From a virus: a stretch of DNA of 29,054 nucleotides. The notes under the pieces are model-generated. The model was given only the letters and a program-made list of their open reading frames with translations, did not search any database and had not been told where the DNA came from. The stretch lies in UHGV virus genome UHGV-0296494; one strand, given 5' to 3'. The position numbers and the translations under genes were made by a program. This document shows positions 3,866 through 23,526 of this stretch, one piece after another. The first letter of the stretch is position 1. Every line of letters begins with the position of its first letter.

Positions 3866-3872
3866 TCTCCGG

Positions 3873-3897: not shown

Positions 3898-3905
3898 ATG
3901 TTGAC

Positions 3906-4594
3906 TCACTGAGACACTATTAAAAGCGCGTTTTCCAGTCCGGCAAATGGATCTGATACGCCTTCTGTCTGCTCCTTCTCCCACTGAAGAAGCGCATCAT
4001 TCAGTGGCACTTTGACCCCCTGCGCACCGTAAACAGCTGAAACAATCTGGGCAGCCCGGATATCAGCCCGTTCGTCCCCCAGCGGGCTGAACCTGTCAAA
4101 TTCTGCCCACATCATGATTTCTGATGCGGACATTTCCCGGCGTAACTCTGACAATGTGCGCCCCATCCTGAGCGCCAGCATCATCAGAAAACGCATCCCC
4201 GGAAGCGCTACTTTTTTTTAACCTCGCCGGCATCACTGATCAGTTCCAGAGACTGCCGAAGAAGCCGCGCATGCACCGGGCCATACACGGCAATCACCTG
4301 TTCACGATCATCCTCTGAAAATACGGGTTGCAGTCCGGTATCACACAGAACATCAATGAACAGTTCAACATCTGCCTCCAGATTTCGGCGGGCGCGCTCC
4401 GCAACGGATAACGGTGTCTCATCATCTTTTGCTTTAACGATCTCCTGCCAGCGCAACCAGGCTTCTGCAGAAGGTTCCCGTAACACAACCGTTGCTCCCT
4501 CCCATTCAGGCACATCAACGGTTTTATGGCGAAACCCCGACATCGTTGCCAGTGCCAGATTACGGATATTTTTAGTCATCACATCCATCCTCAT
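3906..4594 (-). CDS. Tail assembly chaperone G-T fusion made by programmed -1 frameshift at 4211-4217
   Basis: Minus strand reads GTT AAA AAA AAG TAG. A -1 slip on A_AAA_AAG continues as AAA AAA GTA GCG CTT CCG GGG ATG CGT TTT (K K V A L P G M R F), exactly in frame with ORF 3906..4196 (MRFLMMLALRMGRTL...), a gpT-like domain. Confidence 0.6.
4208..4594 (-). CDS. Tail assembly chaperone (gpG-like), zero-frame product
   Basis: 128-aa ORF immediately after the major tail gene, ending GEVKKK-stop at the A AAA AAG slippery site. Start ambiguous: ATG at 4594 (TAATG overlap) or ATG at 4579 with GAGGA upstream. Confidence 0.8.
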   Translation of the reverse strand: MRMDVMTKNIRNLALATMSGFRHKTVDVPEWEGATVVLREPSAEAWLRWQEIVKAKDDETPLSVAERARRNLEADVELFIDVLCDTGLQPVFSEDDREQVIAVYGPVHARLLRQSLELISDAGEVKKK

Positions 4595-5298
4595 TAACTG
4601 ACGGTTACAGTGCAGGAAGTGGAGGTCACTTTGTTAACCGGGCTTGCTGAATCAGAAATCTCGCAGGTATATGCACCCGCATCACCGGATACTGCCGATG
4701 CCTTACTGAACGTTGCCGCCGTCTGTCCGGAAACAGGAGAACCACCTTTCTTCCAGACATAAGAATAAGGCGGCACACCACCCGCAGCCTCAACCGCCAT
4801 TTCAAGTTTCGCTCCGGAAGCAACCCGCAGCGTGCTTTTTAAATCGGCCTTCACTTTCAGCGGCTCTGTCGTCAGCACAGGTTTACCTTTCAGGCGCAAG
4901 GAAAACGTTGCAGCCACAACACCATTGGTTCCTGCAGACCAGGTATGCTGACGCACCTCTGCCATAAAGGTAAATCCGTTGCCTGACGGAAAAATAACTT
5001 TAAAGCCATACGTGGTGTCATTGTCATAGGCACTGCGCAACGCGTTCTGGGCAGCATTCAGATAAAAGTTGCCTGACATGGAAATCTCTGACGCGGCACC
5101 AAGACCGTTAATATTTTCCTGCTCAACAGAACACAGCGTGGTGACATCAATATCCTGCTTTTGTCCTGCGGTAAACTGCACCTCTTTGATTGTACAGCTC
5201 AGGCCAAGATAGCTGGCAGAATCCAGGGTTTCTGCTGTTACCGGTGCAGACGAAATCATAATTTTCGTCAGTTGCGAACGCTCAAAATTAGAGGACAT
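4594..5298 (-). CDS. Major tail protein with C-terminal Ig-like domain
   Basis: 234-aa ORF; ATG at 5298 with GGAGA SD. C-terminal segment (PPYSYVWKKGGSPVSGQTAATFSKASAVSGDAGAYTCEISD) looks Ig-like. Sits directly upstream of the G/GT chaperones as in lambda V. Confidence 0.85.
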   Translation of the reverse strand: MSSNFERSQLTKIMISSAPVTAETLDSASYLGLSCTIKEVQFTAGQKQDIDVTTLCSVEQENINGLGAASEISMSGNFYLNAAQNALRSAYDNDTTYGFKVIFPSGNGFTFMAEVRQHTWSAGTNGVVAATFSLRLKGKPVLTTEPLKVKADLKSTLRVASGAKLEMAVEAAGGVPPYSYVWKKGGSPVSGQTAATFSKASAVSGDAGAYTCEISDSASPVNKVTSTSCTVTVS

Positions 5299-5310
5299 AC
5301 TCGTCTCCTG

Positions 5311-5338
5311 AAAATAAAAAAACCCGCCAGCGGCGGGT
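5311..5338 (-). terminator. Intrinsic-terminator-like hairpin just upstream of the major tail protein gene
   Basis: Minus-strand ACCCGCC-GCT-GGCGGGT followed by TTTTTTTATTTT, then the SD and ATG of the major tail gene. Confidence 0.45.
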
Positions 5339-5358
5339 GGGTAAAATCATTAATGACC

Positions 5359-5703
5359 TCAGGCTATTACCTGAAATTCAAGCGTGGCTCTGCTCAGACG
5401 GGAGTCAGGATCATAACCCTGCGTTTTAGAAATAACGGAGGGTGCCAGTTTTCTTACCGCATCAAGCGCCTGCTCACGAATATTATCTGCGTCATCAGGT
5501 ACTGTCGCCCAGACATCGATCTGCACGGTAATTCTGGATTCAGCCTGCCCATCAAGCACATCAGATGCCGTGTCAGACACCACAGAAAACACCAGCCACG
5601 GCGGAGATACCGCAGGCTTTCCCTCCGTCAGTGGGACCACATAAGGATAAACCTGTCCTCCGGCCAGCTGAGACAACAGGGAATACAGTGTGGCCTCTCT
5701 CAT
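5359..5703 (-). CDS. Tail component, DUF3168-like (putative tail terminator/completion protein)
   Basis: 114-aa ORF; ATG at 5703 overlaps the upstream stop (ATGA). Placed between the head-completion genes and the major tail gene. Confidence 0.65.
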   Translation of the reverse strand: MREATLYSLLSQLAGGQVYPYVVPLTEGKPAVSPPWLVFSVVSDTASDVLDGQAESRITVQIDVWATVPDDADNIREQALDAVRKLAPSVISKTQGYDPDSRLSRATLEFQVIA

Positions 5704-6146
5704 TTACTTAAGACCTCATCAATAGCCTGATTCATTCGCTGTATGGCAATCCGTGCTGCCAGTTCCTCTGTCGTATCGAAAGCCGGGCGAATGAATGGAT
5801 GCGCGGGCATGTTTATCGTTCCCAGCTCCACAAAGCGCCAGTAAAATGCATTTCGGGGATCGCTGGCTTTCATGCTGTTATCACTGTTTCCGGTTCGCAG
5901 GTTCCGTCCGCGAATGTGGACACCCGAGATAATTTCCCCCCGACGCTTTGAACGCTGAGTGAGAACAACCACATTTTTCTTCAGTTTCCCGGTTCGCTCC
6001 GGCGCACGTTCAACAACTGCATCCCGCATAACTTCAGCACCGGCACGGGTGGCATCGCGCAGAACCTTATTGTTTTCTGCCCTGCTGAGCGTCTCCAAAT
6101 CCCGTGCAATATCCGCCAGGCCGGAAAAATCAAGACTGAAATCCAT
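5700..6146 (-). CDS. HK97 gp10-family head-tail joining / tail completion protein
   Basis: 148-aa ORF; ATG at 6146 overlaps the upstream stop (TGATG). Synteny and motif-level resemblance to the HK97 gp10 family. Confidence 0.7.
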   Translation of the reverse strand: MDFSLDFSGLADIARDLETLSRAENNKVLRDATRAGAEVMRDAVVERAPERTGKLKKNVVVLTQRSKRRGEIISGVHIRGRNLRTGNSDNSMKASDPRNAFYWRFVELGTINMPAHPFIRPAFDTTEELAARIAIQRMNQAIDEVLSK

Positions 6147-6484
6147 CACACATTCCCCTTCAGGCTGCAGAGTATTTCAAGCCGGGTAGCGCGTGCATCC
6201 GGTATTGGTGGACCTTCTATACCCAGAATGGCCCCTTTAAATGCACCGGTCAGCACTTTCAGACGTGAAGTCGCTGTCACATCGCGCCGGAATCTCATCC
6301 AGACTCTGACCGTAGCCTGAGCGGTTTCTGCTCCGCCTGAGATTATCTCCCTCCCGCTGATACCCTTAACTTCTGCCCATACGGTAGCTCCCTCCGTCAC
6401 CGTCTCCACCGGATGCCCTGACGGAGAGCGGGCGGTGGTGACATTCAGAATAATTACGCGATCACGTAATCTGCCCGCCTGCAT
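6146..6484 (-). CDS. Head closure / head-tail adaptor protein
   Basis: 112-aa ORF with AGGAGG SD 5 nt upstream of ATG at 6484; begins MQAGRLRDRVIIL, typical of the head-tail joining family. Confidence 0.75.
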   Translation of the reverse strand: MQAGRLRDRVIILNVTTARSPSGHPVETVTEGATVWAEVKGISGREIISGGAETAQATVRVWMRFRRDVTATSRLKVLTGAFKGAILGIEGPPIPDARATRLEILCSLKGNV

Positions 6485-6492
6485 GTCTCCTC

Positions 6493-6810
6493 CTACAAAG
6501 GAATAAAACGATAAGGCTCCAGCAGAGAAGAAAAACCAAACGGGACTGGTGCCTTGCTGACATCTGAGGAATTTTCCCGGTTTTCGTACCAGTGCCCGAC
6601 CAGCAACATGAGCGCCAGCAAAACATCATCAGCTATAAGCACCCCTTCAGGATCACCTTCCGGCACCGTCTCCTCATAAAGCTTACGGTTGATAAAATTT
6701 TCTGCCTTGCGGCAGGCAGCCCGGAAATACAGCATCAGTAACTCATCATCAGTTGCATCATCTGTATCAATACGGCACTGCGCCCTGAGTTTTTCCACTA
6801 TTGCTGCCAT
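6493..6810 (-). CDS. gp6-like head-tail connector protein
   Basis: Trimmed to the ATG at 6810, which has an AGGAG SD; the longer track ORF 6493..6990 overlaps the capsid gene. Product MAAIVEKLRAQCRIDTDDATDDELL... resembles gp6-like connector proteins. Confidence 0.7.
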   Translation of the reverse strand: MAAIVEKLRAQCRIDTDDATDDELLMLYFRAACRKAENFINRKLYEETVPEGDPEGVLIADDVLLALMLLVGHWYENRENSSDVSKAPVPFGFSSLLEPYRFIPL

Positions 6811-6842
6811 CAGAAACTCCTGCCCGCAACACTGTGCGGGCA

Positions 6843-6865
6843 TAAAAAAACCGCGTCGGCGCGGT
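6843..6865 (-). terminator. Intrinsic-terminator-like hairpin directly after the major capsid gene
   Basis: Minus-strand ACCGCG-CCGA-CGCGGT followed by 7 T, about 20 nt after the capsid stop. A second hairpin (GCCCGCA..TGCGGGC, 6822-6841) lies just before the connector SD. Confidence 0.5.
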
Positions 6866-6886
6866 CTGTAACTGAACAACGAGTGG

Positions 6887-8104
6887 TTATTTGCCAGTGA
6901 GCGCCTTGATGGCTGCCACATCTTCCAGCACACAGTCAAAACGATGGAAAGCCAGAAATGCCACCTGATCAAACTCAGCATAACGCTCAACCAGACGTTT
7001 CAGTTCCATATAAGTAACGCGGCGAATGATAAAGCGGTTGAAATCCCCCAGGAAAATGAATTTTTTTCCGGTACCAATCCCGTCAATAGCCTGATCAATA
7101 ACATAAGGGATCCCCAGCACAGTAGCCGGCGTACCGCCTGCAATATCCGGCAGCCATAACGGGCGTTTCTGTCCATCCTCCATCTCTTCAATAGTCTGCA
7201 ATGTGGCATCATTGAATGCCCAGCGGTATTTCGGCCCACCACGATATGCCGGATCAATGGCATGTTTCAGGGCATTCATTTCTTTCCAGGTGAAAGCGGC
7301 AGAGGCTACAGTCTGGATGGTTCCCGTCACCGACGCTGCCAGCCCTTTTGGCTGTAACGGTGATCCCGTTCCGGTCCCCTGAACCAGATATTTTGCCTCT
7401 CCACGACCAATACGCTGGGCAATACGGTTTGCCAGATAAGATTCAATATCCACCCCACTGTCCTGGAGCAGCTCATTGGACACACGAATTATTTTTGATG
7501 ACAGCTTTTTAGCCCCCAGAATAGCGGTCCCGAACGTCACATCCTGTTCCGTTGCGGCTGTATTTTCCGCCAGCAGTTCGCCCTCTTCAGTCGTGCCATC
7601 AGACGTTGACCAGGTGATATCCTGCCCGGTTGATGTGGTCAGAAGTTGCGCCACACTGGCAATCCCGCCATAAGCCTTCATGGTGTCAATGATTTTGTTA
7701 CGCATCTGCGTGGGCACCGTATATCCGCCCTGAGAATCCGTTGTTACACTCTGAGCCCGCAGTTCACGCATCAGATTACGCTCTTCAGCATTCAGTTCTG
7801 CAAATCCGGCACGCAGAAAACGGTTAAATGCCGCAGCGCGCTTCTCTTCCACCGCCTTTTTCCCGTTCTCCGCCTCATTATTCTGGCGCTCTTCCGGCCC
7901 GGACTCATCCACATATGCCTGATCCTGACGGCGCAACTCTTCTTCACGGGCGATTTGCTCATCCAGCGCATCCAGCTCAGCTTTCGCCCTGTTCCACTCT
8001 GCCCGTTGCTCATCAGTCCATGCGTTATCACCAATTTTTTCATGCAGTGCACGCATATCCTTTGCAATGGTGTTTCGTTTTTGCTTCATCTCATGAAGTT
8101 TCAT
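6887..8104 (-). CDS. Major capsid protein, HK97 family, with N-terminal coiled-coil delta (scaffolding) domain
   Basis: 405-aa ORF after the prohead protease. N-terminal ~100 aa are charged and coiled-coil (KAELDALDEQIAREEELRRQDQ). No separate scaffold gene lies between protease and capsid. Confidence 0.9.
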   Translation of the reverse strand: MKLHEMKQKRNTIAKDMRALHEKIGDNAWTDEQRAEWNRAKAELDALDEQIAREEELRRQDQAYVDESGPEERQNNEAENGKKAVEEKRAAAFNRFLRAGFAELNAEERNLMRELRAQSVTTDSQGGYTVPTQMRNKIIDTMKAYGGIASVAQLLTTSTGQDITWSTSDGTTEEGELLAENTAATEQDVTFGTAILGAKKLSSKIIRVSNELLQDSGVDIESYLANRIAQRIGRGEAKYLVQGTGTGSPLQPKGLAASVTGTIQTVASAAFTWKEMNALKHAIDPAYRGGPKYRWAFNDATLQTIEEMEDGQKRPLWLPDIAGGTPATVLGIPYVIDQAIDGIGTGKKFIFLGDFNRFIIRRVTYMELKRLVERYAEFDQVAFLAFHRFDCVLEDVAAIKALTGK

Positions 8105-8118
8105 CGTCAGTAGTATCC

Positions 8119-8718
8119 TTATGCATTAAGAAGGGTCAAAAGACGCTCACGCGCCATTCGTTCGTTAACAGCTTTCTTCAGCGCACCACTCGCCCGCGCT
8201 TCCTGCCAGGCTTTCATTGAGCGGACACCAGAGTCTGCGTCCTGATAGGCCGGATATGTCACCGGGCTGACGTCATACAGACGAGAAATGCGCGTGATTT
8301 CCCGGATAACAATCCCCTCGTCGTCTTCATACCAGCTCTCTCCGTCACGGGCGACACGAAACGCGAACGAGGACTGATTAATGTCACCACGCAACATTGG
8401 AGATAGCACCAGGTCACAAATAGTCGGAGTATCCGGTGCAACAATGTCATAACGTAAACCGCGTTCATCCACCGACAATGACAACGTGCCGGCAGAACTT
8501 CGTCCGAGAATGAAATTAGGATCATGATTAAACAAGCCACGTACATCATCATTCAGTACATCATCAAAAGCCCCCGGCTTGATGATTTCACGAAATCCCC
8601 ACAGAGGTTCTGAACGACTGTTAAATACCGAGCCATAGCCCAGAATGTGGGTCGGGGCATTATCATATTGTTCCGCCCGCACCTCCCCGCTGTAACAGCG
8701 CGTTTCACGGTCATTCAT
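8119..8718 (-). CDS. Prohead maturation protease (HK97 family)
   Basis: 199-aa ORF between portal and capsid genes; ATG at 8718 overlaps the portal stop by 8 nt. Confidence 0.85.
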   Translation of the reverse strand: MNDRETRCYSGEVRAEQYDNAPTHILGYGSVFNSRSEPLWGFREIIKPGAFDDVLNDDVRGLFNHDPNFILGRSSAGTLSLSVDERGLRYDIVAPDTPTICDLVLSPMLRGDINQSSFAFRVARDGESWYEDDEGIVIREITRISRLYDVSPVTYPAYQDADSGVRSMKAWQEARASGALKKAVNERMARERLLTLLNA

Positions 8719-9937
8719 CGTTCTTTTCCTCTTTGCCTTTCGTATCTTTAAAGTTATTCAACGGATTTGCTGCATTTACGCTGACCAGCATTTCATCCAG
8801 ACCGTCAACCGGGTTCATATCCTCAAATGCCCTGGCTTCATTCCGACTCATCCAGCCATCTGTAATGGCAAAGTGATAGAACTGCGCACGCTCCTGTGGG
8901 GTCCCACGGAGCAACCCCGTGAGGTTGAAACGAACGTAATACCCGGCAGCCCGTTCTGTACGGGTAAACAGGCGACGGTTAAGCTCCTGCTCCCAGTTCG
9001 CAACCCAGGGCATCATCGTGTAGCGAACAAACTGAATCGCCTGCTGCGTAATATTCGAAAATGTGGCTTTTTCCAGGTCATTAATCATGTGCGCCGGGAC
9101 ATTAAAAATCCCGGCAATCATCGACCGGTTCAGCTTGGTCATATCAATGATCTGAGCATCCACCGGAGAAACTGTCAGAGCGCGGTAATCCAGTTGCGCA
9201 GGCAGCAACATGGTTTTATTTTCCTGGCTGCGAAGCGCTGTCACCGCCCGCTGCCACATATTCTTGAGCCTGCTCCAACTCTGTTCGTTCAGTTCATTTT
9301 TCACAGAAATAATCCCGGCAGGACGGGCATTACCGTTAAAAAAAGCACTGGTATACTGCTGACCACTCATTCCCATACCAATGGTTTCAGCATGCTGCAT
9401 GATCGGACTCAGTCCCATTTTCTGATTGTTTCCCAGCGCCCTGATATGGATCATGTCGTCCGGACTTACCGCAAATGCACCCTCTTCGTTATACACACCG
9501 TAGGTATGACGCCCTCCGGTGTTAAGTAACGTGGTTTCCCATGGCATACAGCATTCAAGACTGGTAACCTCGCCACGACGATTACGTTTCACCCACGTAT
9601 AACCATTGCCCCACCCCAGCACATGACGCTGCTTCAGTTCCCGCCACTTATAGCTGGTCTGCCAGGCATTCGGTTCATCATGAACGAGCCAGAACAACGG
9701 GTGATCGCGTGCCGGCTGAACATGCTCATTCGTTTTTCGCATCACATGCAGGGGCATCTGAGCCACACTGGATGAAATAACATAAATACAGGCATAGACA
9801 GCAGCCAGCCTCATGGACGTTTCCGGACTGACATACACATCCCGGGCAAAAATATTATCCGTCTCTGCGGCCTCTCCGGTTACCGGAACCGAGGGATTTT
9901 CCAGAGGCTCACTGCGAAACAGAGCATCAAGAAGCAT
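8711..9937 (-). CDS. Portal protein (HK97 family)
   Basis: 408-aa ORF downstream of the large terminase; GAGGAG SD 6 nt upstream of ATG at 9937. Confidence 0.9.
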   Translation of the reverse strand: MLLDALFRSEPLENPSVPVTGEAAETDNIFARDVYVSPETSMRLAAVYACIYVISSSVAQMPLHVMRKTNEHVQPARDHPLFWLVHDEPNAWQTSYKWRELKQRHVLGWGNGYTWVKRNRRGEVTSLECCMPWETTLLNTGGRHTYGVYNEEGAFAVSPDDMIHIRALGNNQKMGLSPIMQHAETIGMGMSGQQYTSAFFNGNARPAGIISVKNELNEQSWSRLKNMWQRAVTALRSQENKTMLLPAQLDYRALTVSPVDAQIIDMTKLNRSMIAGIFNVPAHMINDLEKATFSNITQQAIQFVRYTMMPWVANWEQELNRRLFTRTERAAGYYVRFNLTGLLRGTPQERAQFYHFAITDGWMSRNEARAFEDMNPVDGLDEMLVSVNAANPLNNFKDTKGKEEKNDE

Positions 9938-10067
9938 GTTTTCTCCTCATGGACACCACCAGTGCATAAAGCAGCAACAAACAGCCAGACAGCATCAGAG
10001 ACGCTGGCAGACCTGCATACAGATAAACGCCAGCAGTGAGCAGACCGAAACCGATCAGCCCGGTCAT
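9927..10067 (-). CDS. Hypothetical small hydrophobic protein (46 aa) between large terminase and portal
   Basis: Hand translation of the minus strand gives MTGLIGFGLLTAGVYLYAGLPASLMLSGCLLLLYALVVSMRRKHAS. It fills the 147-nt TerL-portal gap and overlaps the portal start by 11 nt. No clear SD; not in the ORF track because it is under 60 aa. Confidence 0.25.
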   Translation of the reverse strand: MTGLIGFGLLTAGVYLYAGLPASLMLSGCLLLLYALVVSMRRKHAS

Positions 10068-10084
10068 ATCAGTAATAAGCTGTT

Positions 10085-11842
10085 TCACAGAATTAACAGG
10101 TCCTCATCAGGATCAAGCGTGGACAGAAAGTCATTCACGCCCCCGCCATTTACCAGAAAGCGGCTCATGGCTGTAAAAAGCGCAACAGGGCCGTCGATTT
10201 TGGCTTCCGGCGTGGATTTATTCGGGAAGATGTTGTCGTTTTTGTCCGGTTTTACAGTAACGTTAGACATCATCCAGTTCATGACCGGATGATTGCTGTG
10301 ATGGAAACGCCCGGCATAAACCAGTGATTCCGTTTCCTTCATGGCCTCTGACAGATTGCGGACCGTCTGCGGAACCTCCACCAGCGGTATCCCTTCTTCA
10401 GCCAGTGCCAGACTGAACTGCATTGCGCTCCACGGGTCAAATCCCAGTTCCCTGAGGTTTTCACCGCCAATCCATTCCAGTAAGTCACTTTTTATCTGAG
10501 CATGATCGATAACATCACCATCCGTCAGGATGAGCTTATCCATCTCCGCCCACTTCCGGTAAAGTTCTGCCTGCTGCCGCGAGCATCGTTCCAGCCGTCC
10601 TTCCGGAAGCCAGAATTTAAAATCAGCATGAACATGTCCGTTATCGGTTCGCCAGAGTTTTGCCGCCGCACAGATATCAATCTTATGAGCAAGGTCGACG
10701 CCGACCCACATGGGATATGTTTTCAGCTCATGTTGTGGAGCAATGTATTCGCACTTCTCCCACTTAATCATATCCATCCAGGCAGATTCGGCAGTGACCC
10801 ACACATTCATGTGTTTGGTAAAAAAATTCACCCGCGCAGAGACCTGCTCCTTCGCTTTTTTCGCCAGACGACGCAGATCATCCCAGCGTTTACAGATGCC
10901 CAGGCCAGGATTCGCTTTCTGCCAGACCGTTTCATCAAACGGATCATCTCCCTCATCAAGCGTGTAAATGATCGCAAAGTAAGAGTCGTCTTTTACAGCG
11001 CCCTCCACGTCGCTGTTATAGCCTCGCAATACCTTGATGGCGTAATCACGCTGCTCGTAACAAATCCCTTCCTTGTTAAAGCCAGCCGTGGTGATACCAA
11101 ATAACAGGGACTGCAGACGGGCACCGGTTGCCGTTTCCAGAACGTCCCACACGTCGCGGGTTTTATGTGCATGCAGCTCATCAATAATGGCGCAGTGGAT
11201 GTTCAGACCGTCCAGGTTGTTTGCATCCGAGGAAAGCGGTTCAAATTTTGATGCGCTCTGCTCCTGGTAAATCGCCAGCTTGTTGAAATCAAACAACCGC
11301 CCGAGTGTCGACCGGGCTTTTCTGACCATATTTTTGGCGTCTTCAAACACGATTCTGGCCTGGTCACGCGTGGTTGCGGCTGAATACACCTCAGCTCCGC
11401 CTTCACTATCTGCCCCCGTCATATACAGGCCGATACCCGATGACAGGGTTGATTTTGCGTTTTTACGGGCGACTTCGTTGTACGCCGTCCGGAACCGGCG
11501 CACCATCACCGGACGTCCGCTGCCATCGCTGCGCATGACAACTTCCCCGGTTTCTTCATTGACCAGCGGAATGACAAAACCAAAAATATTAATGAGGATA
11601 AATACATGCCAGTCCATCAACTCAATGGGCTGGCCTGCCAGTGCCCCTTTTACATGAGGCACAAATTTGTAGAAATTCAGGATGTGCTGCGCACGGGGTT
11701 CACTGAAATAAATCCCCCGCTTTTCGCCGTACTTCAGATCATCAAGAAAACGCTGGCAGGCCAGGCGGACAAATTCGCCAGCAACAATTTCTCCTGCAAC
11801 AACACGTTCGGCGTAGCGGATCCCGTCAGCCACTTTTGCCAT
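10085..11842 (-). CDS. Terminase large subunit
   Basis: 585-aa ORF; start overlaps the small terminase stop (ATGA). Size and position between TerS and portal. Confidence 0.9.
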   Translation of the reverse strand: MAKVADGIRYAERVVAGEIVAGEFVRLACQRFLDDLKYGEKRGIYFSEPRAQHILNFYKFVPHVKGALAGQPIELMDWHVFILINIFGFVIPLVNEETGEVVMRSDGSGRPVMVRRFRTAYNEVARKNAKSTLSSGIGLYMTGADSEGGAEVYSAATTRDQARIVFEDAKNMVRKARSTLGRLFDFNKLAIYQEQSASKFEPLSSDANNLDGLNIHCAIIDELHAHKTRDVWDVLETATGARLQSLLFGITTAGFNKEGICYEQRDYAIKVLRGYNSDVEGAVKDDSYFAIIYTLDEGDDPFDETVWQKANPGLGICKRWDDLRRLAKKAKEQVSARVNFFTKHMNVWVTAESAWMDMIKWEKCEYIAPQHELKTYPMWVGVDLAHKIDICAAAKLWRTDNGHVHADFKFWLPEGRLERCSRQQAELYRKWAEMDKLILTDGDVIDHAQIKSDLLEWIGGENLRELGFDPWSAMQFSLALAEEGIPLVEVPQTVRNLSEAMKETESLVYAGRFHHSNHPVMNWMMSNVTVKPDKNDNIFPNKSTPEAKIDGPVALFTAMSRFLVNGGGVNDFLSTLDPDEDLLIL

Positions 11843-12324
11843 CAGTCTCTCGCTTTTAAAAGCTCTGCCAGCGGATCAACATTATCCGGTCCGGCGGTAT
11901 TTACTTTTGCCCGGCTTGCCGGTGACATACCAAATTCTGCAAGCATCGCCCGGATCCGCTTCCAGGCATCCGCTTTCATCGCAGCAGCCGGGTGTGCCTT
12001 AATCAGCACATCACCGTTCTGCGTTTTCGAGCGGTAGGTGTACCCCTCAACATCGAGTGTTTCGCAGTGATGCCGGTATTCGGTATAGGCTTCCACCAGT
12101 AGCTCAAGCGCACGCGCATCAAGCTGAGAAATGATCCCTTCCGCATTCAGCTCTTCCGCCATTCGCCTGAACCAGTACTTCCCCTGCGCCCCTAAATGTT
12201 GCGGAATTTTAGGGAGACCTTTTTCATCCTTTTTAGCGGTTTTTTTGAGGTCTTTAACTGGCCGCTTTGAGGGGTTGCCTCGTATCAAATGCAGGCGTGG
12301 CGGGGTTTTCGGGGGTCCAGACAT
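11842..12324 (-). CDS. Terminase small subunit (P27-like)
   Basis: 160-aa ORF immediately upstream of TerL with a basic N-terminus (MSGPPKTPPRLHLIRGNPSKRPVKDLKK); ATG at 12324. Confidence 0.8.
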   Translation of the reverse strand: MSGPPKTPPRLHLIRGNPSKRPVKDLKKTAKKDEKGLPKIPQHLGAQGKYWFRRMAEELNAEGIISQLDARALELLVEAYTEYRHHCETLDVEGYTYRSKTQNGDVLIKAHPAAAMKADAWKRIRAMLAEFGMSPASRAKVNTAGPDNVDPLAELLKARD

Positions 12325-12471
12325 AATCGGTTTTACCTATCAATCATTTAATCACATTCCAAAAAAAAGTTTTCGAACCTGCGGCGATGCGAGGAAAGGT
12401 CAGGCGGCGGTACTGAGCAGCCAGGGTTGCAGAGATTTGGCCTGCCCCTCCCCTACAGATGGGAACTGTTA

Positions 12472-12822
12472 TCAATTGATGCGTTCGCGCGCTGTTTTTG
12501 CTTTATGACAGGGCCAGCACAGACTCTGCAGGTTACTGTCTGCATCCGTGCCACCATGAGCTTTCGGAATGATGTGGTCCACAGTTCTGGCTTCAACGGC
12601 TCTCCCATTGCGCAGGCAGTTCTGACACAGATGATTATCACGCTTCAGTATGCGCGCACGTATGGCATCCCATTTCGAGCCATAGCCACGCTGGTGGCGG
12701 CTCAGTCCGCGTTGATGCTGTACCCATCCTTCGCCACGATGTTTATCGCAGTAACCAGAACTGTCTGTGGTTGTACCTGCACATCCACGCTTACGGCAGG
12801 CGCGTGGGATTCGTGGGGGCAT
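12472..12822 (-). CDS. HNH endonuclease (phage packaging-associated)
   Basis: Contains CxxC...DHIIPKAHGGTDADSNLQSLCWPCH, an HNH motif with zinc-binding cysteine pairs. The track ORF starts at a TTG at 12921; trimmed to ATG 12822, which has a GGAG SD 6 nt upstream. Confidence 0.85.
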   Translation of the reverse strand: MPPRIPRACRKRGCAGTTTDSSGYCDKHRGEGWVQHQRGLSRHQRGYGSKWDAIRARILKRDNHLCQNCLRNGRAVEARTVDHIIPKAHGGTDADSNLQSLCWPCHKAKTARERIN

Positions 12823-12942
12823 ATGTACTCCAATGAAGAAGCCACCGACATAGCCTCCTCCATTCATAGTGAAACTATTTTCATCTACCCAGTAATGAAT
12901 TCTTTGTAGAGTTGTGATCAATACAACTCACTAATGGAGAGG

Positions 12943-12964
12943 CTTGTCCAACACGTTGGACAAG
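12943..12964. repeat. Perfect 22-bp palindrome CTTGTCCAAC-AC-GTTGGACAAG
   Basis: Read directly: 10-bp arms are exact reverse complements. Further GGACA motifs follow at 12983 and 12996. Lies in the divergent junction upstream of the HNH gene. Confidence 0.6.
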
Positions 12965-13044
12965 TTTCCTGTTTGATTTACTGGACACTATAGAAGGACA
13001 GAATGCCTTCATCACTCGAATAACATCAATTAAGGAGGTTCAAC

Positions 13045-13167
13045 ATGTTTCATTCCACAAATCATCAGGCTGTAATTATGGCTGCATCAGCTTGTGCCAC
13101 AGACCTTTTCCGCTTCACTTTGAGCCTGATTCATTTCTACCTGACCGGCTCGCCTCTATCTTTTTAA
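13045..13167 (+). CDS. Hypothetical 40-aa protein with near-consensus ribosome-binding site
   Basis: TAAGGAGGT at 13031-13039, 5 nt before ATG 13045. Translation MFHSTNHQAVIMAASACATDLFRFTLSLIHFYLTGSPLSF-stop. Not in the ORF track (under 60 aa). Confidence 0.3.
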   Translation: MFHSTNHQAVIMAASACATDLFRFTLSLIHFYLTGSPLSF

Positions 13168-13483
13168 TCCCCGCTTTATCCAAATTGCATTGCCAGAATG
13201 CCGACAACAGACTGACATTCAAATCCTGACTACCTCCGATAGGCTGAGCATCCACCTATATAGTTTTAATTTTCATCAATCCATTTAACTATCGTTTAAT
13301 TGTTGTCACATAGGATTCTGCCGTTTTTAACAATGAAGAAACAGGAAGCTGTATTACAGAAAGTGCTACTACTGTATCCCGATGCGATGTATGTAATGTG
13401 AGTCAGATAATGGCACAGGATGTGGTGATGTGGCAGTCTGGAACACAGGATATATTGTCAGAATAAGACCCGTAGGAATAAAA

Positions 13484-13810
13484 ATGAAAAGACGCCTTTT
13501 ACTACTTTTTCTGTTATCTGTCCTGGCAGTGGGATGCTCGCAGCAAAAAGCTGATGAGCCCCGGCAATTAGTGACGGTGTATCCACGATATCCGGAATAT
13601 GCTGCAGCAAATTATATCAAGGGGCTGGTTGAGGTTAAGTTCGATATTGGTGCTGATGGGACTGTGACACGGATCGTTTTTCTCCGCTCAGAGCCTCATA
13701 ATTTGTTTCGTGATGAAGTGGTGAAGGCCATGGCGAAATGGCGATTTGAAAAGAATCGCCCCTGTCAGGGAGTGAAGAGACAATTTATCTTTACGCCGTC
13801 ACGTCCTTGA
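13484..13810 (+). CDS. Lipoprotein with TonB C-terminal-like domain (putative moron)
   Basis: Trimmed to the internal ATG 13484 (AGGA SD 6 nt upstream). N-terminus MKRRLLLLFLLSVLAVGC is a lipoprotein signal with lipobox LAVG-C. The rest (YPEYAAANYIKGLVEVKFDIGADGTVTRIVFLRSEPHNLFRDEVVKAMAKWRF) matches the TonB C-terminal motif pattern. Confidence 0.65.
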   Translation: MKRRLLLLFLLSVLAVGCSQQKADEPRQLVTVYPRYPEYAAANYIKGLVEVKFDIGADGTVTRIVFLRSEPHNLFRDEVVKAMAKWRFEKNRPCQGVKRQFIFTPSRP

Positions 13811-14173
13811 TGCTTCCAGGTAGAGAGGGGCTGGAAGCAGGAGAAAAATGAAAGAGCCAGCGGTTATATTTTTGTCATGGCTGACGAGGAATGATGGAAG
13901 AAGGCGTTGTATGCCACACAACGCCTCACTGTTCATTTCTTCTTTTTCTCTGGTGGAACCCGATGAATAAGAGTTGCACTGGTTTCCGATGAGATGGCGA
14001 TATACTCGGGCAAAGTATGCTGGCAGTTTTCCAACTGGTCAAAAATACCTGCTCTCGTCTGTTGCAATGCCTGCAGCATGCGGCGGCAATGCGCCTTGCT
14101 TTTACTAACCATCTTTCCTTCCTCTATCAGTCGCTGCGTGAACTCATCATGGAATACCAGGTAAATGCGGATG

Positions 14174-14425
14174 TTATCGGTTTTGGCTACGCAGCATAGT
14201 ACAAAACGGACAGGTGCATCCCGGGACGGGGGAGGCGTCACATGTCCCTGTGATGGTTGTTCCGGGTAATGTACTGTGTGGGGCATAAAAATGTCCGATA
14301 ATTTTACTTTCTACCGCAGTTAGTTGATTCGTTGGTCCTGGTAGCACATTGGGCGAGGATTTAAATGCCAGGCAACTGAAGGATGATGTCGCAAGGGAGA
14401 TAGCGAGAATATTTCTGATTTTCAT
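14174..14425 (-). CDS. Hypothetical small secreted protein (83 aa)
   Basis: Internal ATG at 14425 of ORF 14174..14494(-) gives MKIRNILAISLATSSFSCLA-FKSSP..., a basic N-terminus plus hydrophobic core like a Sec signal peptide. Weak SD; overlaps another ORF; lies in the conserved right-end region next to cos. Confidence 0.2.
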   Translation of the reverse strand: MKIRNILAISLATSSFSCLAFKSSPNVLPGPTNQLTAVESKIIGHFYAPHSTLPGTTITGTCDASPVPGCTCPFCTMLRSQNR

Positions 14426-14573
14426 TTGATGATGCCTCTGTGTGAAATGACGGTAAACGACGCACTTGTGCCGGCACATAATAGCAAGCACCATAATAGA
14501 TCAGATTCGATTCTTGCTGTAAGTGATAATTATTCTCGTTTTCGGGTCCTTTCCGTCGATCCAACAGGTTACG

Positions 14574-14745
14574 GGGCGGCGACCTCGCGGGTTTTCGCTA
14601 TTTATGAAAATTTTCCGGTTTAAGGCGTTTCCGTTCTTCTTCGCCGTAACTTAATGTTTTTATTTAAAACACTCCCTGAAAAGAAAGGAAACGACAGGTG
14701 CTGAAAACGGGCTTTTTGGCCTCTGTCGTTTCCTTTCTCTGTTTT
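14574..14745 (+). other. cos: Lambda-type cos site: cosN 12-nt cohesive-end sequence at 14574-14585 plus cosB terminase/IHF binding region
   Basis: CAGGTTACG|GGGCGGCGACCTCGCGGGTTTTCGCTATTTATGAAAATTTTCCGGTTTAAGGCGTTTCCGTTCTTCTTCG matches the lambda right-end/left-end junction as I remember it. R-site-like repeats (CGTTTCCGTTCT; AGGAAACGACAG...CTGTCGTTTCCT) precede nu1. Confidence 0.85.
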
Positions 14746-14762
14746 TGTCCGTGGAATGAACA

Positions 14763-15282
14763 ATGGAAGTCAACAAAAAGCAGCTGGCTGACATTTTCGG
14801 CGCGAGTATCCGTACTATTCAGAACTGGCAGGAGCAGGGAATGCCCGTTCTGCGAGGCGGTGGGAAGGGTAATGAGGTGCTTTATGACTCTGCCGACGTC
14901 ATAAAATGGTATGCCGAAAGGGATGCTGAAATTGAGAACGAAAAGCTGCGCCGGGAGGTTGAAGAACTGCGACAGGCCAGCGAGACAGATCTCCAGCCAG
15001 GGACTATTGAGTACGAACGCCATCGACTTACGCGTGCGCAGGCCGACGCACAGGAGCTGAAAAATGCCAGAGACTCCGCTGAAGTGGTGGAAACCGCATT
15101 CTGTACTTTCGTGCTGTCGCGGATCGCAGGTGAAATTGCCAGTATTCTCGACGGGATCCCCCTGTCGGTGCAGCGGCGTTTTCCGGAACTGGAAAACCGA
15201 CATGTTGATTTCCTGAAACGGGATATCATCAAAGCCATGAACAAAGCAGCCGCGCTGGATGAACTGATACCGGGGTTGCTGA

Positions 15283-15308
<26 letters not shown>
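14763..15308 (+). CDS. nu1: Terminase small subunit Nu1
   Basis: 181 aa, MEVNKKQLADIFGASIRTIQNWQEQGMPVLRGGGKGNEVLYD..., essentially lambda Nu1. Confidence 0.97.
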
Positions 15309-18989
<3,681 letters not shown>

Positions 18990-19009
<20 letters not shown>

Positions 19010-20309
19010 TCTCCCGCATATTGCCAGTATGGCCTTTAATGAGCCGCTGATGCTTGAACCCGCCTATGCGCGGGTTTTCTTTTGTGCGCTTGCAGGCCAG
19101 CTTGGGATCAGCCGCCTGACGGATGCGGTATCCGGCGACAGCCTGACTGCCGGAGAGGCACCCGCGGCGCTGGCGTTATCCGTTGATGATGACGGACCAC
19201 GACAGGCCCGCAGTTATCAGGTCATGAACGGCATCGCCGTGCTGCCGGTGTCCGGCACGCTGGTCAGTCGGACGCGAGCGCTGCAGCCGTATTCGGGGAT
19301 GACCGGTTACAACGGCATTATCGCCCGTCTGCAACAGGCTGCCAGCGACCCGATGGTGGACGGCATTCTGCTCGATATGGATACGCCAGGCGGGATGGTG
19401 GCAGGGGCATTTGACTGCGCTGACATCATCGCCCGTGTGCGTGACATAAAGCCGGTATGGGCGCTGGCCAACGACATGAACTGCAGTGCAGGTCAGTTGC
19501 TTGCCAGCGCCGCCTCCCGACGTCTGGTCACGCAGACCGCCCGGACAGGCTCCATCGGCGTCATGATGGCTCACAGTAATTACGGTGCTGCGCTGGAGAA
19601 ACAGGGCGTGGAAATCACGCTGATTTACAGCGGCAGCCATAAGGTGGATGGCAACCCCTACAGCCATCTACCGGATGATGTCCGGGAAACACTGCAGTCC
19701 CGGATGGATGCAACCCGCCGGATGTTTGCACAGAAGGTGTCGGCATATACCGGCCTGTCCGTGCAGGCTGTGCTGGATACCGAGGCTGCAGTGTACAGCG
19801 GTCAGGAGGCCATTGATGCCGGACTGGCTGATGAACTTGTTAACAGTACCGATGCGATCACCGTCATGCGTGATGCACTGGATGCACGTAAATCCCGTCT
19901 CTCAGGAGGGCGAATGACCAAAGAGACTCAATCAACAACTGTTTCAGCCACTGCTTCGCAGGCTGACGTTACTGGCGTGGTGCCAGCGACGGAGGGCGAG
20001 AACGCCAGCGCTGCGCAGCCGGACGTGAACGCGCAGATCACCGCAGCGGTTGCGGCAGAAAACAGTCGCATTATGGGGATCCTCAACTGTGAGGAAGCTC
20101 ACGGACGCGAAGAACAGGCACGCGTGCTGGCCGAAACCCCTGGTATGACCGTGGAAACGGCCCGCCGCATTCTGGCAGTTGCACCACAGAGTGCACAGGC
20201 GCGCAGTGACACTGCGCTGGATCGTCTGATGCAGGGGGCACCGGCACCGCTGGCTGCAGGTAACCTGGCATCTGATGCCGTTAACGATTTGCTGAACACA
20301 CCAGTGTAA
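18990..20309 (+). CDS. C: Capsid assembly protease C
   Basis: GTG start at 18990 with AGGAGGAGAAGA SD; 20-nt overlap with B as in lambda; product TAELRNLPHIASMAFNEPLMLEPAYARVFF.... The longer track ORF 18855..20309 is not used. Confidence 0.9.
19704..20309 (+). CDS. nu3: Scaffolding protein Nu3 (in-frame internal start within C)
   Basis: ATG at 19704 in the C frame (MDATRRMFAQKV...), at the same offset from the C start as lambda nu3. Expression is inferred from lambda. Confidence 0.75.
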   Translation: MDATRRMFAQKVSAYTGLSVQAVLDTEAAVYSGQEAIDAGLADELVNSTDAITVMRDALDARKSRLSGGRMTKETQSTTVSATASQADVTGVVPATEGENASAAQPDVNAQITAAVAAENSRIMGILNCEEAHGREEQARVLAETPGMTVETARRILAVAPQSAQARSDTALDRLMQGAPAPLAAGNLASDAVNDLLNTPV

Positions 20310-20318
20310 GGGATGTTT

Positions 20319-20651
20319 ATGACGAGCAAAGAAACCTTTACCCATTACCAGCCGCTGGGCAACAGTGACCCGGCTCATACCGCAACCGCGCCCGGCGGAT
20401 TGAGTGCGAAAGCGCCTGCAATGACCCCGCTGATGCTGGACACCTCCAGCCGTAAGCTGGTTGCGTGGGATGGCACCACCGACGGTGCTGCCGTTGGCAT
20501 TCTTGCGGTTGCTGCTGACCAGACCAGCACCACGCTGACGTTCTACAAGTCCGGCACGTTCCGTTATGAGGATGTGCTCTGGCCGGAGGCTGCCAGCGAC
20601 GAGACGAAAAAACGGACCGCGTTTGCCGGAACGGCAATCAGCATCGTTTAA
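20319..20651 (+). CDS. D: Head decoration protein D
   Basis: 110 aa, [52 protein letters not shown].... Confidence 0.95.
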
Positions 20652-20670
20652 CTTTACCCTTCATCACTAA

Positions 20671-20693
20671 AGGCCGCCTGTGCGGCTTTTTTT
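20671..20693 (+). terminator. Hairpin plus T-run between D and E
   Basis: AGGCCGC-CTGT-GCGGCTT followed by TTTTTTT, then a second T-run immediately before the E ATG at 20707. Confidence 0.45.
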
Positions 20694-20706
20694 ACGGGAT
20701 TTTTTT

Positions 20707-21732
20707 ATGTCGATGTACACAACCGCCCAGCTGCTGGCGGCAAATGAGCAGAAATTTAAGTTTGATCCGCTGTTTCTGCGTCTCTTTTTCCGTGAGAGCT
20801 ATCCCTTCACCACGGAGAAAGTCTATCTCTCACAAATTCCGGGACTGGTAAACATGGCGCTGTACGTTTCGCCGATTGTTTCCGGTGAGGTTATCCGTTC
20901 CCGTGGCGGCTCCACCTCTGAATTTACGCCGGGATATGTCAAGCCGAAGCATGAAGTGAATCCGCAGATGACCCTGCGTCGCCTGCCGGATGAAGATCCG
21001 CAGAATCTGGTGGACCCGGCTTACCGCCGCCGTCGCATCATCATGCAGAACATGCGTGACGAAGAGCTGGCCATTGCTCAGGTCGAAGAGATGCAGGCAG
21101 TTTCTGCCGTGCTTAAGGGCAAATACACCATGACCGGTGAAGCCTTCGATCCGGTTGAGGTGGATATGGGCCGCAGTGAGGAGAATAACATCACGCAGTC
21201 CGGCGGCACGGAGTGGAGCAAGCGTGACAAGTCCACGTATGACCCGACCGACGATATCGAAGCCTACGCGCTGAACGCCAGCGGTGTGGTGAATATCATC
21301 GTGTTCGATCCGAAAGGCTGGGCGCTGTTCCGTTCCTTCAAAGCCGTCAAGGAGAAGCTGGATACCCGTCGTGGTTCTAATTCCGAGCTGGAGACAGCGG
21401 TGAAAGACCTGGGTAAAGCGGTGTCCTATAAGGGGATGTATGGCGATGTGGCCATCGTCGTGTATTCCGGACAGTACGTGGAAAACGGCGTCAAAAAGAA
21501 CTTCCTGCCGGACAACACGATGGTGCTGGGGAACACTCAGGCACGCGGTCTGCGCACCTATGGCTGCATTCAGGATGCGGACGCACAGCTCGAAGGCATT
21601 AACGCCTCTGCCCGTTACCCGAAAAACTGGGTGACCACCGGCGATCCGGCGCGTGAGTTCACCATGATTCAGTCAGCACCGCTGATGCTGCTGGCTGACC
21701 CTGATGAGTTCGTGTCCGTACAACTGGCGTAA
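20707..21732 (+). CDS. E: Major capsid protein E
   Basis: 341 aa from ATG 20707 (MSMYTTAQLLAANEQKFKFDPLFLRLFFRESYPF...). The track ORF begins at an upstream alternative start. Confidence 0.97.
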   Translation: MSMYTTAQLLAANEQKFKFDPLFLRLFFRESYPFTTEKVYLSQIPGLVNMALYVSPIVSGEVIRSRGGSTSEFTPGYVKPKHEVNPQMTLRRLPDEDPQNLVDPAYRRRRIIMQNMRDEELAIAQVEEMQAVSAVLKGKYTMTGEAFDPVEVDMGRSEENNITQSGGTEWSKRDKSTYDPTDDIEAYALNASGVVNIIVFDPKGWALFRSFKAVKEKLDTRRGSNSELETAVKDLGKAVSYKGMYGDVAIVVYSGQYVENGVKKNFLPDNTMVLGNTQARGLRTYGCIQDADAQLEGINASARYPKNWVTTGDPAREFTMIQSAPLMLLADPDEFVSVQLA

Positions 21733-21734
21733 TC

Positions 21735-21752: not shown

Positions 21753-21773
21753 TGTTTCTCTGTGGAGGAGTCC

Positions 21774-23519: not shown

Positions 23520-23526
23520 GGACGAT

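What the first reader, a model, noticed from the sequence alone, without database searches (positions are those of the whole stretch)
11842..15308. Two packaging/head modules arranged head-to-head with only about 1.75 kb between them and no lysis or early genes
In lambdoid prophages the late operon runs Q, lysis cassette, cos, terminase, head, tail. Here the HNH/terminase end of module 1 (minus strand, start 12822) and the cos/nu1 end of module 2 (plus strand, cos at 14574) face each other. The gap holds only a lipoprotein gene, small ORFs and a palindrome; nothing resembles holin, endolysin, Rz, Q or an integrase. So at least one module, probably both, lacks its upstream late-operon context. 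This fits a deletion/fusion between two divergently oriented prophages or a chimeric assembly. The gap is visibly more AT-rich than the flanking structural genes.
Basis: partly seen in the sequence, partly recalled or inferred. Interest (0 to 1): 0.7.

Follow-up and report, generated by a model that had tools for sequence, protein, structure and literature searches.

The report
Chimeric join of two ST131 prophages
Two well-known E. coli ST131 prophage packaging/head/tail blocks are butted together at one non-homologous breakpoint (window 13335) seen in no other genome searched, so the head-to-head layout is most likely an assembly or library chimera, not new phage biology.

Summary
An HK97-type module (HNH, P27-family TerS, TerL, minus strand) and a lambda-type module (cosN at 14574, Nu1, gpA, plus strand) face each other across 1.75 kb. 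That gap holds no holin, endolysin, spanin, Q or integrase.

The cause is a single breakpoint at window 13335:
- Window 3-13335 is 100% identical to the serU prophage of ST131 strain EC958.
- Window 13335-28935 is 100% identical to the icd prophage of ST131 strains.
- In EC958 these prophages are convergent, and their packaging ends lie about 886 kb apart.
- In each one a complete Q-lysis-iss/bor cassette sits directly beyond the point where the window breaks off.

The join has 1 bp of microhomology and is not mediated by the shared iss repeat. It has circle or tandem-duplication topology, so a simple deletion or inversion cannot produce it. It is absent from 5,426 complete E. coli genomes, PLSDB, INPHARED, GTDB representatives, JGI metagenomes and IMG/VR.

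A second illegitimate fold-back junction lies 15.6 kb away, at 28935|28936 inside the gpK-like gene.

The most likely explanation is a chimeric assembly, concatenated contigs or a chimeric read. This has a documented precedent in the ST131 genome NA114. A real strain-specific rearrangement is not excluded. All components are ordinary, so interest is low.

The parts
3..13335 (-). Block X: structural and packaging module of the ST131 serU prophage ('A', HK97-like). It runs from the minor tail protein L gene (cut at the window edge) through tape measure, capsid, protease, portal, TerL, TerS and HNH, and ends 13 nt before where iss would start.
   Evidence: 100% identical, with no gaps, to EC958 NZ_CP138232.1 3195992-3209324.
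10085..11842 (-). Large terminase of module A.
   Evidence: 585-aa ORF. RefSeq calls it 'terminase TerL endonuclease subunit'. Precomputed Pfam hits PF03354 and PF20441 on the identical gene in other contigs.
11842..12324 (-). Small terminase, P27 family.
   Evidence: PF05119 E 5.1e-25; phrog_83 E 3e-54.
12325..12471 (.). Intergenic spacer between HNH and TerS. By analogy with HK97-type phages this is the inferred location of module A's cos site.
   Evidence: Inference only. HNH genes lie next to cos and the terminase genes in many phages (PMC3592412 abstract). No cos mapping was done here.
12472..12822 (-). HNH endonuclease, the packaging accessory of module A.
   Evidence: PF01844 E 1.9e-16; phrog_144 E 9e-42.
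12823..13335 (.). A-derived non-coding spacer that normally separates HNH from iss/bor. It contains a terminator-like hairpin at 12939-12968 and a weak Rz-like 46-aa ORF at 13115-13255 (-). Its last 75 nt (13261-13335) are the iss upstream region, an exact inverted copy of the sequence upstream of iss in prophage B.
13335..13335 (.). Junction 1. The A sequence ends ...TTTTTAACAAT[G] and the B sequence begins [G]AAGAAACAGGAAGC. The shared G is the only microhomology.
   Evidence: Base-by-base comparison with L001 and L002. No place covering the junction in any collection searched.
13335..28935 (+). Block Y: cos-proximal spacer plus packaging, head and tail module of the ST131 icd prophage ('B', lambda-like). 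Gene order is TonB_C lipoprotein, cos, Nu1, gpA, W, portal, protease, D, E, FI, tail genes, tape measure, M, L and the first 232 nt of the K-like C40 peptidase gene.
   Evidence: 100% identical, with no gaps, to strain 4/1-1 NZ_CP023844.1 1273668-1289268.
13484..13810 (+). TonB_C-domain lipoprotein (108 aa, signal peptide ending LAVGC). It is a moron-type cargo gene that normally follows Rz/bor in lambdoid prophages.
   Evidence: PF03544 E 7e-13. RefSeq WP_000830178.1 'TonB family protein'. It follows Rz or Bor in all 10 other contigs examined.
13933..14286 (-). 117-aa ORF of unknown function.
   Evidence: phrog_4843 (unknown function) E 3e-46; no Pfam hit. Called as a gene in several other contigs.
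14574..14585 (+). cosN cohesive-end sequence GGGCGGCGACCT of module B. The cosB R-site repeats follow up to about 14742.
   Evidence: Identical to the first 12 nt of lambda NC_001416. Window 14518-15372 is 96.7% identical to lambda right end plus left end. Inverted repeat at 14682-14738. The R-site labels come from my own knowledge of lambda cosB.
14763..15308 (+). Nu1 small terminase (nohD-like).
   Evidence: PF07471 E 2.9e-100.
15283..17208 (+). gpA large terminase.
   Evidence: 641-aa ORF. PF05876 and PF20454 on the same gene in other contigs. RefSeq annotation.
28936..29054 (-). Block Z: 119 nt that are the reverse complement of positions 558-440 of the K-like gene. They are joined to position 232 of the forward copy, giving a fold-back junction (junction 2, CTGGCTGA|ATTCGGCACC).
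   Evidence: 100% identical to L017 4594->4476. 99.2% identical to prophage A's K gene. No genome covers this junction.

Best explanation
The head-to-head arrangement is not a biological unit. It is a chimeric join of two unrelated pieces of an E. coli ST131 chromosome.

Shown:
- Block X (3-13335) is the HNH/terminase/head/tail part of the HK97-like prophage at serU.
- Block Y (13335-28935) is the cos/Nu1/A/head/tail part of the lambda-like prophage at icd.
- In reference ST131 genomes each block is preceded by its own antiterminator, holin, lysozyme, Rz/Rz1 and iss (bor) genes.
- The window cuts both prophages just on the packaging side of iss, so the lysis and Q genes appear to be missing.
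- The junctions are non-homologous, and neither is found in any collection searched.

Inferred:
- The join was most likely made during sequencing or assembly. Candidates are a chimeric long read or library ligation product turned into a small spurious contig, or contigs concatenated into a pseudo-molecule.
- The artefactual origin cannot be proven without the reads.

If the DNA did exist in a cell, both modules would be cut off from their Q-dependent late promoters and lysis genes. They would be silent and unable to form a phage.
For: 1. Both blocks are 100% identical, without gaps, to two separate ST131 prophages.
2. In one closed genome (EC958) prophage A lies at serU..zinT and prophage B at the icd site. 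They are convergent, with their packaging ends about 886 kb apart. Strain 4/1-1 shows the same for B.
3. In the references, iss-Rz1-lysozyme-holin-Q follow 13 nt after the A break. Q-holin-lysozyme-Rz-iss plus 332 bp precede the B break.
4. In 20 further contexts from other assemblies, HNH is always preceded by lysis genes and Bor, and the TonB_C gene is always preceded by the lysis genes, with Bor in some.
5. The junction has 1 bp of microhomology. It is not a mosaic boundary: ten other lambdoid loci all continue with the B-type sequence to the left of 13335.
6. Junction 1 is absent from 5,426 complete E. coli genomes, PLSDB, INPHARED, GTDB species representatives, JGI metagenome contigs and IMG/VR. 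The hypothetical reciprocal junction is absent from the complete E. coli genomes.
7. A second, unrelated illegitimate junction lies 15.6 kb away. It is a fold-back inside gene K with a 326-nt offset, and it is likewise absent from the complete E. coli genomes, GTDB representatives, metagenome contigs and IMG/VR.
8. The only mismatch to the references in the whole window is at base 2. Anomalies clustering at the ends of a 29,054-base sequence are what a small spurious contig would show.
9. Precedents exist. The 'complete' ST131 genome NA114 contains a region of about 160 kb of prophage and island fragments, attributed to artefactual concatenation of contigs (PMC4134206). RefSeq also holds a 17-kb linear 'plasmid' that is only a prophage fragment.
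Against: - No read data are available, so the artefact is inferred, not shown.
- The B-side break (13335) and both sides of junction 2 do not sit at repeat boundaries, at least relative to the A and B prophage loci compared. That is not what simple concatenation of de Bruijn-graph contigs predicts. Only the A-side break lies inside a repeat, 75 nt in.
- The source record could not be identified, so the assembly method is unknown.
- Illegitimate recombination with 1-bp microhomology does occur in vivo.
Confidence: 0.68

Rival explanations
1. A real, very recent, strain-specific illegitimate rearrangement in an ST131 chromosome. One version is a tandem duplication of the ~886-kb icd-to-serU segment, whose novel joint is junction 1. 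Another is a more complex replication-based event with template switching that created both junction 1 and the fold-back at 28935|28936. It would leave two orphaned, transcriptionally silent structural modules abutting each other.
For: - Junction 1 has exactly the topology of a tandem-duplication or circle joint for the segment bounded by the two breaks.
- Junctions with 1-bp microhomology and fold-back junctions are known products of illegitimate recombination and snap-back synthesis (my own knowledge of tandem-inversion-duplication work in Salmonella).
- The B-side break is not at a repeat, so it is not a typical short-read contig end.
Against: - It needs a duplication of about 0.9 Mb spanning the terminus region, or several independent illegitimate events within 16 kb.
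- There are no SNPs relative to the references, which implies an extremely recent event.
- Neither junction, nor a reciprocal one, occurs in any of 5,426 complete genomes, which include many ST131 genomes. Junction 1 is also absent from PLSDB and INPHARED, and both junctions are absent from GTDB representatives, metagenome contigs and IMG/VR.
- No selective rationale is apparent.
Confidence: 0.22
2. Two prophages were integrated next to each other in divergent orientation, and a deletion removed the early, Q and lysis regions of both, fusing the packaging ends.
For: The window alone is compatible with it: two divergent modules with nothing regulatory between them.
Against: - The two blocks are 100% identical to prophages that, in every reference examined, occupy serU and icd. 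They are about 886 kb apart and convergent.
- No genome in 5,426 has them adjacent.
- The fusion point lacks any remnant of att sites, integrase or early genes.
- A deletion between convergent prophages would fuse tails, not packaging ends.
Confidence: 0.05
3. Homologous recombination between the two iss/bor copies (or the shared tail genes) of the two prophages produced a chromosomal inversion. This is the kind of event known for lambdoid prophages in E. coli O157.
For: - iss plus about 90 bp upstream is shared between A and B in inverted orientation.
- The last 75 nt before the break on the A side are an exact inverted copy of the B iss-upstream sequence.
Against: - Recombination in that repeat would yield lysis_B-iss-HNH_A hybrids and keep iss at the joint. 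It cannot juxtapose the two packaging ends.
- The B-side break is 332 bp from iss and 215 bp outside the repeat. iss is absent from the window, and the joint is out of register with 1-bp microhomology.
Confidence: 0.02

Closest known systems
Phage lambda late region (Q - S/R/Rz/Rz1 - bor - cos - nu1 - A ...)
   Same: - Block Y has lambda's cosN 12-mer and a cos/nu1 region 96.7% identical to lambda.
- It carries Nu1, gpA, W, portal, protease, D and E in lambda order.
- In its native ST131 prophage the order Q-holin-lysozyme-Rz-iss(bor)-spacer-cos matches lambda.
   Different: - In the window everything upstream of the post-bor spacer is replaced by the other prophage.
- The spacer between bor and cos carries a TonB_C lipoprotein gene instead of lambda's p78/p79 ORFs, and it has no similarity to lambda.
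HK97-type packaging module (HNH endonuclease - cos - small terminase - large terminase)
   Same: HNH (PF01844) lies immediately upstream of a P27-family TerS and a TerL, followed by portal, HK97-family prohead protease and major capsid protein. HNH genes adjacent to cos and the terminase genes are a widespread arrangement (PMC3592412).
   Different: Nothing unusual in the module itself. In its native prophage, lysis genes and iss precede HNH. Here they are cut away.
Misassembled ST131 genome NA114 (concatenated prophage and island contigs)
   Same: It is an ST131 clade C sequence in which prophage fragments from different chromosomal sites are juxtaposed without biological meaning. Forde et al. 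2014 attribute this to contigs 'junked' and concatenated into a pseudo-molecule (PMC4134206).
   Different: - I could not show that the window comes from NA114. That record is not in the searchable collections.
- Three of the four block ends do not coincide with repeat boundaries, as short-read contig ends usually do.
Prophage-mediated large chromosomal inversions by homologous recombination
   Same: They involve two lambdoid prophages on opposite sides of the terminus that share inverted homologous segments. A and B share iss and tail genes L and K at 85-93% identity.
   Different: Those events occur in register inside the shared homology and create intact hybrid prophages. Here both joints are out of register and non-homologous, and they separate the structural genes from their regulatory and lysis genes.

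Membership tests
Lambda-type cos packaging module | 12-nt cosN cohesive-end sequence followed by cosB and nu1. | tested here: met
   GGGCGGCGACCT at 14574-14585. 96.7% identity to the lambda right-end/left-end joint over 857 nt.
Lambda-type cos packaging module | Nu1 small subunit and GpA large subunit. | tested here: met
   PF07471 E 2.9e-100. PF05876 and PF20454 on the identical downstream gene in other contigs.
HK97-type HNH-assisted packaging module | HNH endonuclease gene adjacent to the small and large terminase genes. | tested here: met
   PF01844 and PF05119. TerL PF03354 and PF20441.
HK97-type HNH-assisted packaging module | cos site between the HNH and small terminase genes. | not testable with these tools
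   A 147-bp intergenic spacer at 12325-12471 is the candidate. Confirmation needs virion DNA ends.
Complete lambdoid late operon (Q/pR' - lysis cassette - packaging genes) | Antiterminator Q upstream of the structural genes. | tested here: not met
   No Q-family hit in 12823-14760. Q is present in both parental prophages just beyond the break.
Complete lambdoid late operon (Q/pR' - lysis cassette - packaging genes) | Holin, endolysin and spanin genes upstream of cos/terminase. | tested here: not met
   None found in the gap. The only hits are a 46-aa weak Rz-like ORF and a PHROG 'spanin' label on the TonB_C lipoprotein.
Homologous prophage-prophage inversion | Joint lies in register inside a sequence shared by both prophages. 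| tested here: not met
   1-bp microhomology at 13335. The B side is 215 bp outside the iss repeat. Junction 2 is offset by 326 nt.
Assembly or library chimera | Joint between sequences that are distant in all related genomes, with no homology at the joint. | tested here: met
   The breaks are about 886 kb apart in EC958. 1-bp microhomology.
Assembly or library chimera | Joint not reproducible in independent assemblies. | tested here: met
   0 of 5,426 complete E. coli genomes carry it. No exact match in GTDB representatives, metagenomes or IMG/VR, and none in PLSDB or INPHARED.
Assembly or library chimera | Lack of read support across the joint. | not testable with these tools
   The source record and its reads are unknown.

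The most novel reading that the evidence does not exclude
The junctions are real. An ST131 isolate would then carry a recent large illegitimate rearrangement whose end points fall next to the iss/bor morons of two prophages flanking the terminus. It could be a ~0.9-Mb tandem duplication of the icd-serU segment or a template-switch event. The additional snap-back joint in a tail gene would make it a natural example of replication-based complex rearrangement seeded in prophage DNA.
Probability: 0.2. Interest if true: 0.3.

Novelty: not a real feature. Interest (0 to 1): 0.1.

Why it matters
The value is mainly in quality control.

- The apparent 'two packaging modules without lysis or regulatory genes' should not be read as a new prophage architecture, a satellite-like element or a dual-cos system.
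- Both modules are standard, fully contextualised prophages of the ST131 clone.
- Recognising the two non-homologous joints (13335 and 28935|28936) flags the source record as containing chimeric sequence. That matters for anyone using it for prophage typing, synteny or structural-variant calls.
- If the join turned out to be real, it would be a single-strain structural variant that inactivates nothing essential and creates two silent structural-gene blocks. That would be of modest interest.

Tried and rejected
- **Identifying the source record.**
  - Exact junction 28/29-mers were scanned in GTDB representatives, JGI metagenomes and IMG/VR.
  - BLAST of the junction regions was run against complete E. 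coli genomes, and for junction 1 also against PLSDB and INPHARED.
  - I looked up the only ORF of at least 30 aa that spans junction 1.
  - I searched the K-fusion peptide across junction 2 against 5.8 billion protein clusters.
  - None found a match covering a junction. NA114 (NC_017644) is not in the collections.
- **Looking for contigs with HNH next to the TonB_C gene.** An exact-protein look-up of both neighbours returned only canonical lysis/Bor contexts.
- **Natural mosaic boundary at 13335.** Rejected. Ten other loci continue with B-type sequence across it.
- **Contig ends at repeats (concatenated de Bruijn contigs).** Only the A-side end lies in a repeat, 75 nt in. The B start is single-copy in ST131. 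Both sides of junction 2 share at most 25 nt with the other prophage. The result is inconclusive.
- **iss/bor-mediated inversion.** Rejected on geometry and register.
- **A ~30-kb circle closing through prophage A's K/L genes.** Block Z matches B rather than A at the one diagnostic SNP, and about 840 nt would be missing. Not supported.
- **Guessing prophage positions.** Fixed-coordinate fetches in IPCEC48 and EC958 missed twice before the flanking-gene approach worked.

Full report
**What is in the sequence**

- On the minus strand, the window carries a P27-family small terminase (11842-12324), a large terminase (10085-11842) and an HNH endonuclease (12472-12822). Portal, HK97-type protease, major capsid and tail genes lie to their left.
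- On the plus strand, the lambda cohesive-end sequence GGGCGGCGACCT starts at 14574. Window 14518-15372 is 96.7% identical to the joined right and left ends of lambda.
- nu1 (14763-15308), A (15283-17208) and a lambda-order head and tail gene set follow.
- The 1752 bp between the HNH start and cosN contain a TonB_C-domain lipoprotein gene (13484-13810), a few family-less ORFs and two hairpins.
- Pfam and PHROGs find no holin, endolysin, Q or integrase in that gap.
- GC falls to 0.41 at 13001-13500, against 0.50-0.58 on either side.

**Where the two halves come from**

- Window 3-13335 is 100% identical, without a gap, to the prophage between serU/mtfA and zinT in E. coli ST131 strain EC958.
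- Window 13335-28935 is 100% identical, without a gap, to the prophage inserted at icd in ST131 strains. Strain 4/1-1 is one example, and the same prophage is present in EC958.
- The changeover is a single point. The A sequence ends ...TTTTTAACAAT[G] and the B sequence begins [G]AAGAAACAGG. Only the G is shared.

**What is missing, and why**

- In EC958, prophage A continues 13 nt beyond the break with iss. Rz1, lysozyme, holin, two tRNAs and the antiterminator follow.
- In strain 4/1-1, prophage B is preceded by Q, holin, lysozyme, Rz, iss and a further 332 bp.
- Both modules therefore have a completely ordinary late-operon context in every reference. The window simply cuts both prophages on the packaging side of their iss/bor moron.
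- Ten other contigs carrying the identical TonB_C gene, and ten carrying the identical HNH gene, all keep lysis genes upstream. Every HNH context and some TonB_C contexts also have Bor there.
- The AT-rich composition of the gap is inherited from these native spacers.

**Geometry**

- Flanking core genes place A and B in one chromosome. In EC958, A runs int...Q...lysis-iss-HNH-terminase...tail fibres-zinT at 3.18-3.22 Mb.
- B runs in the opposite direction at 4.054-4.10 Mb, with its tail fibres and sitABCD facing A.
- The prophages are thus convergent, tails inward. The two break points lie on the outer sides, about 886 kb apart, across the terminus region.
- Joining them in the orientation seen in the window is the joint expected from circularising or tandemly duplicating that 886-kb segment.
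- A deletion between the prophages would fuse tails instead.
- An inversion through the shared iss repeat, or through the shared tail genes, would keep lysis genes next to packaging genes and keep iss at the joint.
- The last 75 nt before the break on the A side are an exact inverted copy of the iss-upstream sequence of B.
- The B break, however, lies 215 bp outside that repeat, and iss itself is absent. The repeat therefore did not mediate the join.
- Position 13335 is also not a natural mosaic boundary. Ten other lambdoid loci all continue with the B-type sequence to its left.

**A second junction**

- At 28935|28936 the B sequence stops at nucleotide 232 of the K-like C40 peptidase gene.
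- It continues with the reverse complement of nucleotides 558-440 of the same gene. That stretch is 100% identical to B and 99.2% identical to A's homologue.
- This is a fold-back joint with a 326-nt offset and essentially no microhomology.
- The only mismatch to the references in the whole window is at base 2.

**Is either joint seen elsewhere?**

No.
- Junction 1: no place covering it in 5,426 complete E. coli genomes, which include many ST131 genomes, nor in PLSDB or INPHARED. There is no exact match in GTDB species representatives, JGI metagenome contigs or IMG/VR.
- Junction 2: no place in the complete E. coli genomes and no exact match in the GTDB, metagenome or IMG/VR collections.
- A hypothetical reciprocal joint is also absent from the complete E. 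coli genomes.
- The peptide created across junction 2 is not among 5.8 billion protein clusters.

**Interpretation**

The window shows four things together:
- two non-homologous, unique joints within 16 kb;
- perfect identity to reference ST131 DNA on either side of each joint;
- a topology that would need a 0.9-Mb duplication or several illegitimate events;
- anomalies concentrated at the ends of an odd-length (29,054-base) sequence.

These are best explained by a chimera made during sequencing or assembly. It could be a spurious small contig built on a chimeric read, or contigs concatenated into a pseudo-molecule.

There is a direct precedent in this clone. Forde et al. showed that the 'complete' ST131 genome NA114 contains about 160 kb of prophage and island fragments from different loci. 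They attributed this to artefactual concatenation of contigs (PMC4134206). Prophage-fragment contigs are also deposited as 'plasmids', for example the 17-kb linear pMY504-4.

I could not show that the window comes from NA114. Three of the four block ends are not at repeat boundaries, so the exact kind of artefact stays open.

A genuine strain-specific rearrangement cannot be excluded without reads. I give it about 0.2.

**Consequences if it were real**

- Both structural modules would be separated from their Q-dependent late promoters and from all lysis and early genes.
- cos, Nu1/A and HNH/TerS/TerL would be intact but unexpressed.
- No phage or satellite-like function would follow.

**Novelty and verdict**

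Every component is a known family member in its usual internal order. Only the juxtaposition is unusual, and it is most probably not biological. Interest is low. The practical outcome is a warning about the source record and a pair of precise coordinates to test with reads or PCR.

Noticed in passing
window 28935|28936 (to 29054): Second non-homologous joint. The K-like C40 peptidase gene runs forward to its nt 232 and is then followed by the reverse complement of its own nt 558-440. The joint reads CTGGCTGA|ATTCGGCACC and creates a GAATTC site. It is absent from the complete E. coli genomes, GTDB representatives, metagenome contigs and IMG/VR.
   Followed up: yes
window 1-2: The only mismatch to the ST131 references in 29 kb is at base 2 (C, where both prophage L genes have G). 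It could be a contig-end error or the last bases of yet another block. Block lengths then read 2 + 13,333 + 15,600 + 119 = 29,054. The near-round lengths may be coincidence.
   Followed up: partly
window 13261-13335; L002 8679-8786: iss (bor homologue) and about 90-110 bp upstream are shared by both ST131 prophages in inverted orientation (92.7% over 110 bp, 75 nt exact). This gives a potential substrate for a terminus-spanning inversion that would swap structural modules between the two prophages. I did not look for such hybrids in other genomes.
   Followed up: partly
window 13484-13810: PHROGs labels the TonB_C-domain lipoprotein family (phrog_1267) 'Rz-like spanin', although Pfam sees only TonB_C. 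The native prophages also carry a separate Rz/Rz1. This is probably a guilt-by-position mislabel in PHROGs.
   Followed up: partly
window 13115-13255 (-): A 46-aa ORF in the spacer between iss and HNH has weak similarity to Rz-like spanin families (phrog_3001, E 8e-8). It may be a relic of an older lysis-cassette end into which the iss moron was inserted.
   Followed up: no
window 14174-14494 (-): An ORF just upstream of cos has an internal start giving MKIRNILAISLATSSFSCLAFK..., which looks like a signal peptide. It has no Pfam or PHROG family. It overlaps the 117-aa ORF at 13933-14286 and a RefSeq-annotated 60-aa ORF on the other strand.
   Followed up: no
L030 (NZ_AP026906.1, whole record); also CP088398.1, CP088669.1, CP061244.1 in PLSDB: Records filed as E. 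coli plasmids that look like chromosomal or prophage fragments. One is a 17-kb linear record holding only lysis-to-tail prophage genes. Others are 0.38-1.4-Mb 'plasmids' carrying this prophage region.
   Followed up: partly
L002/L017/L018 (NZ_CP023844.1 1254329-1300064): The icd prophage of ST131 carries bulky cargo: a gene of about 4.3 kb for an inverse autotransporter between P and ybcN/Q, and sitABCD beyond the tail fibres. In some ST131 strains IS66-family elements are inserted between the TonB_C gene region and the terminase (hits H1-H5).
   Followed up: no
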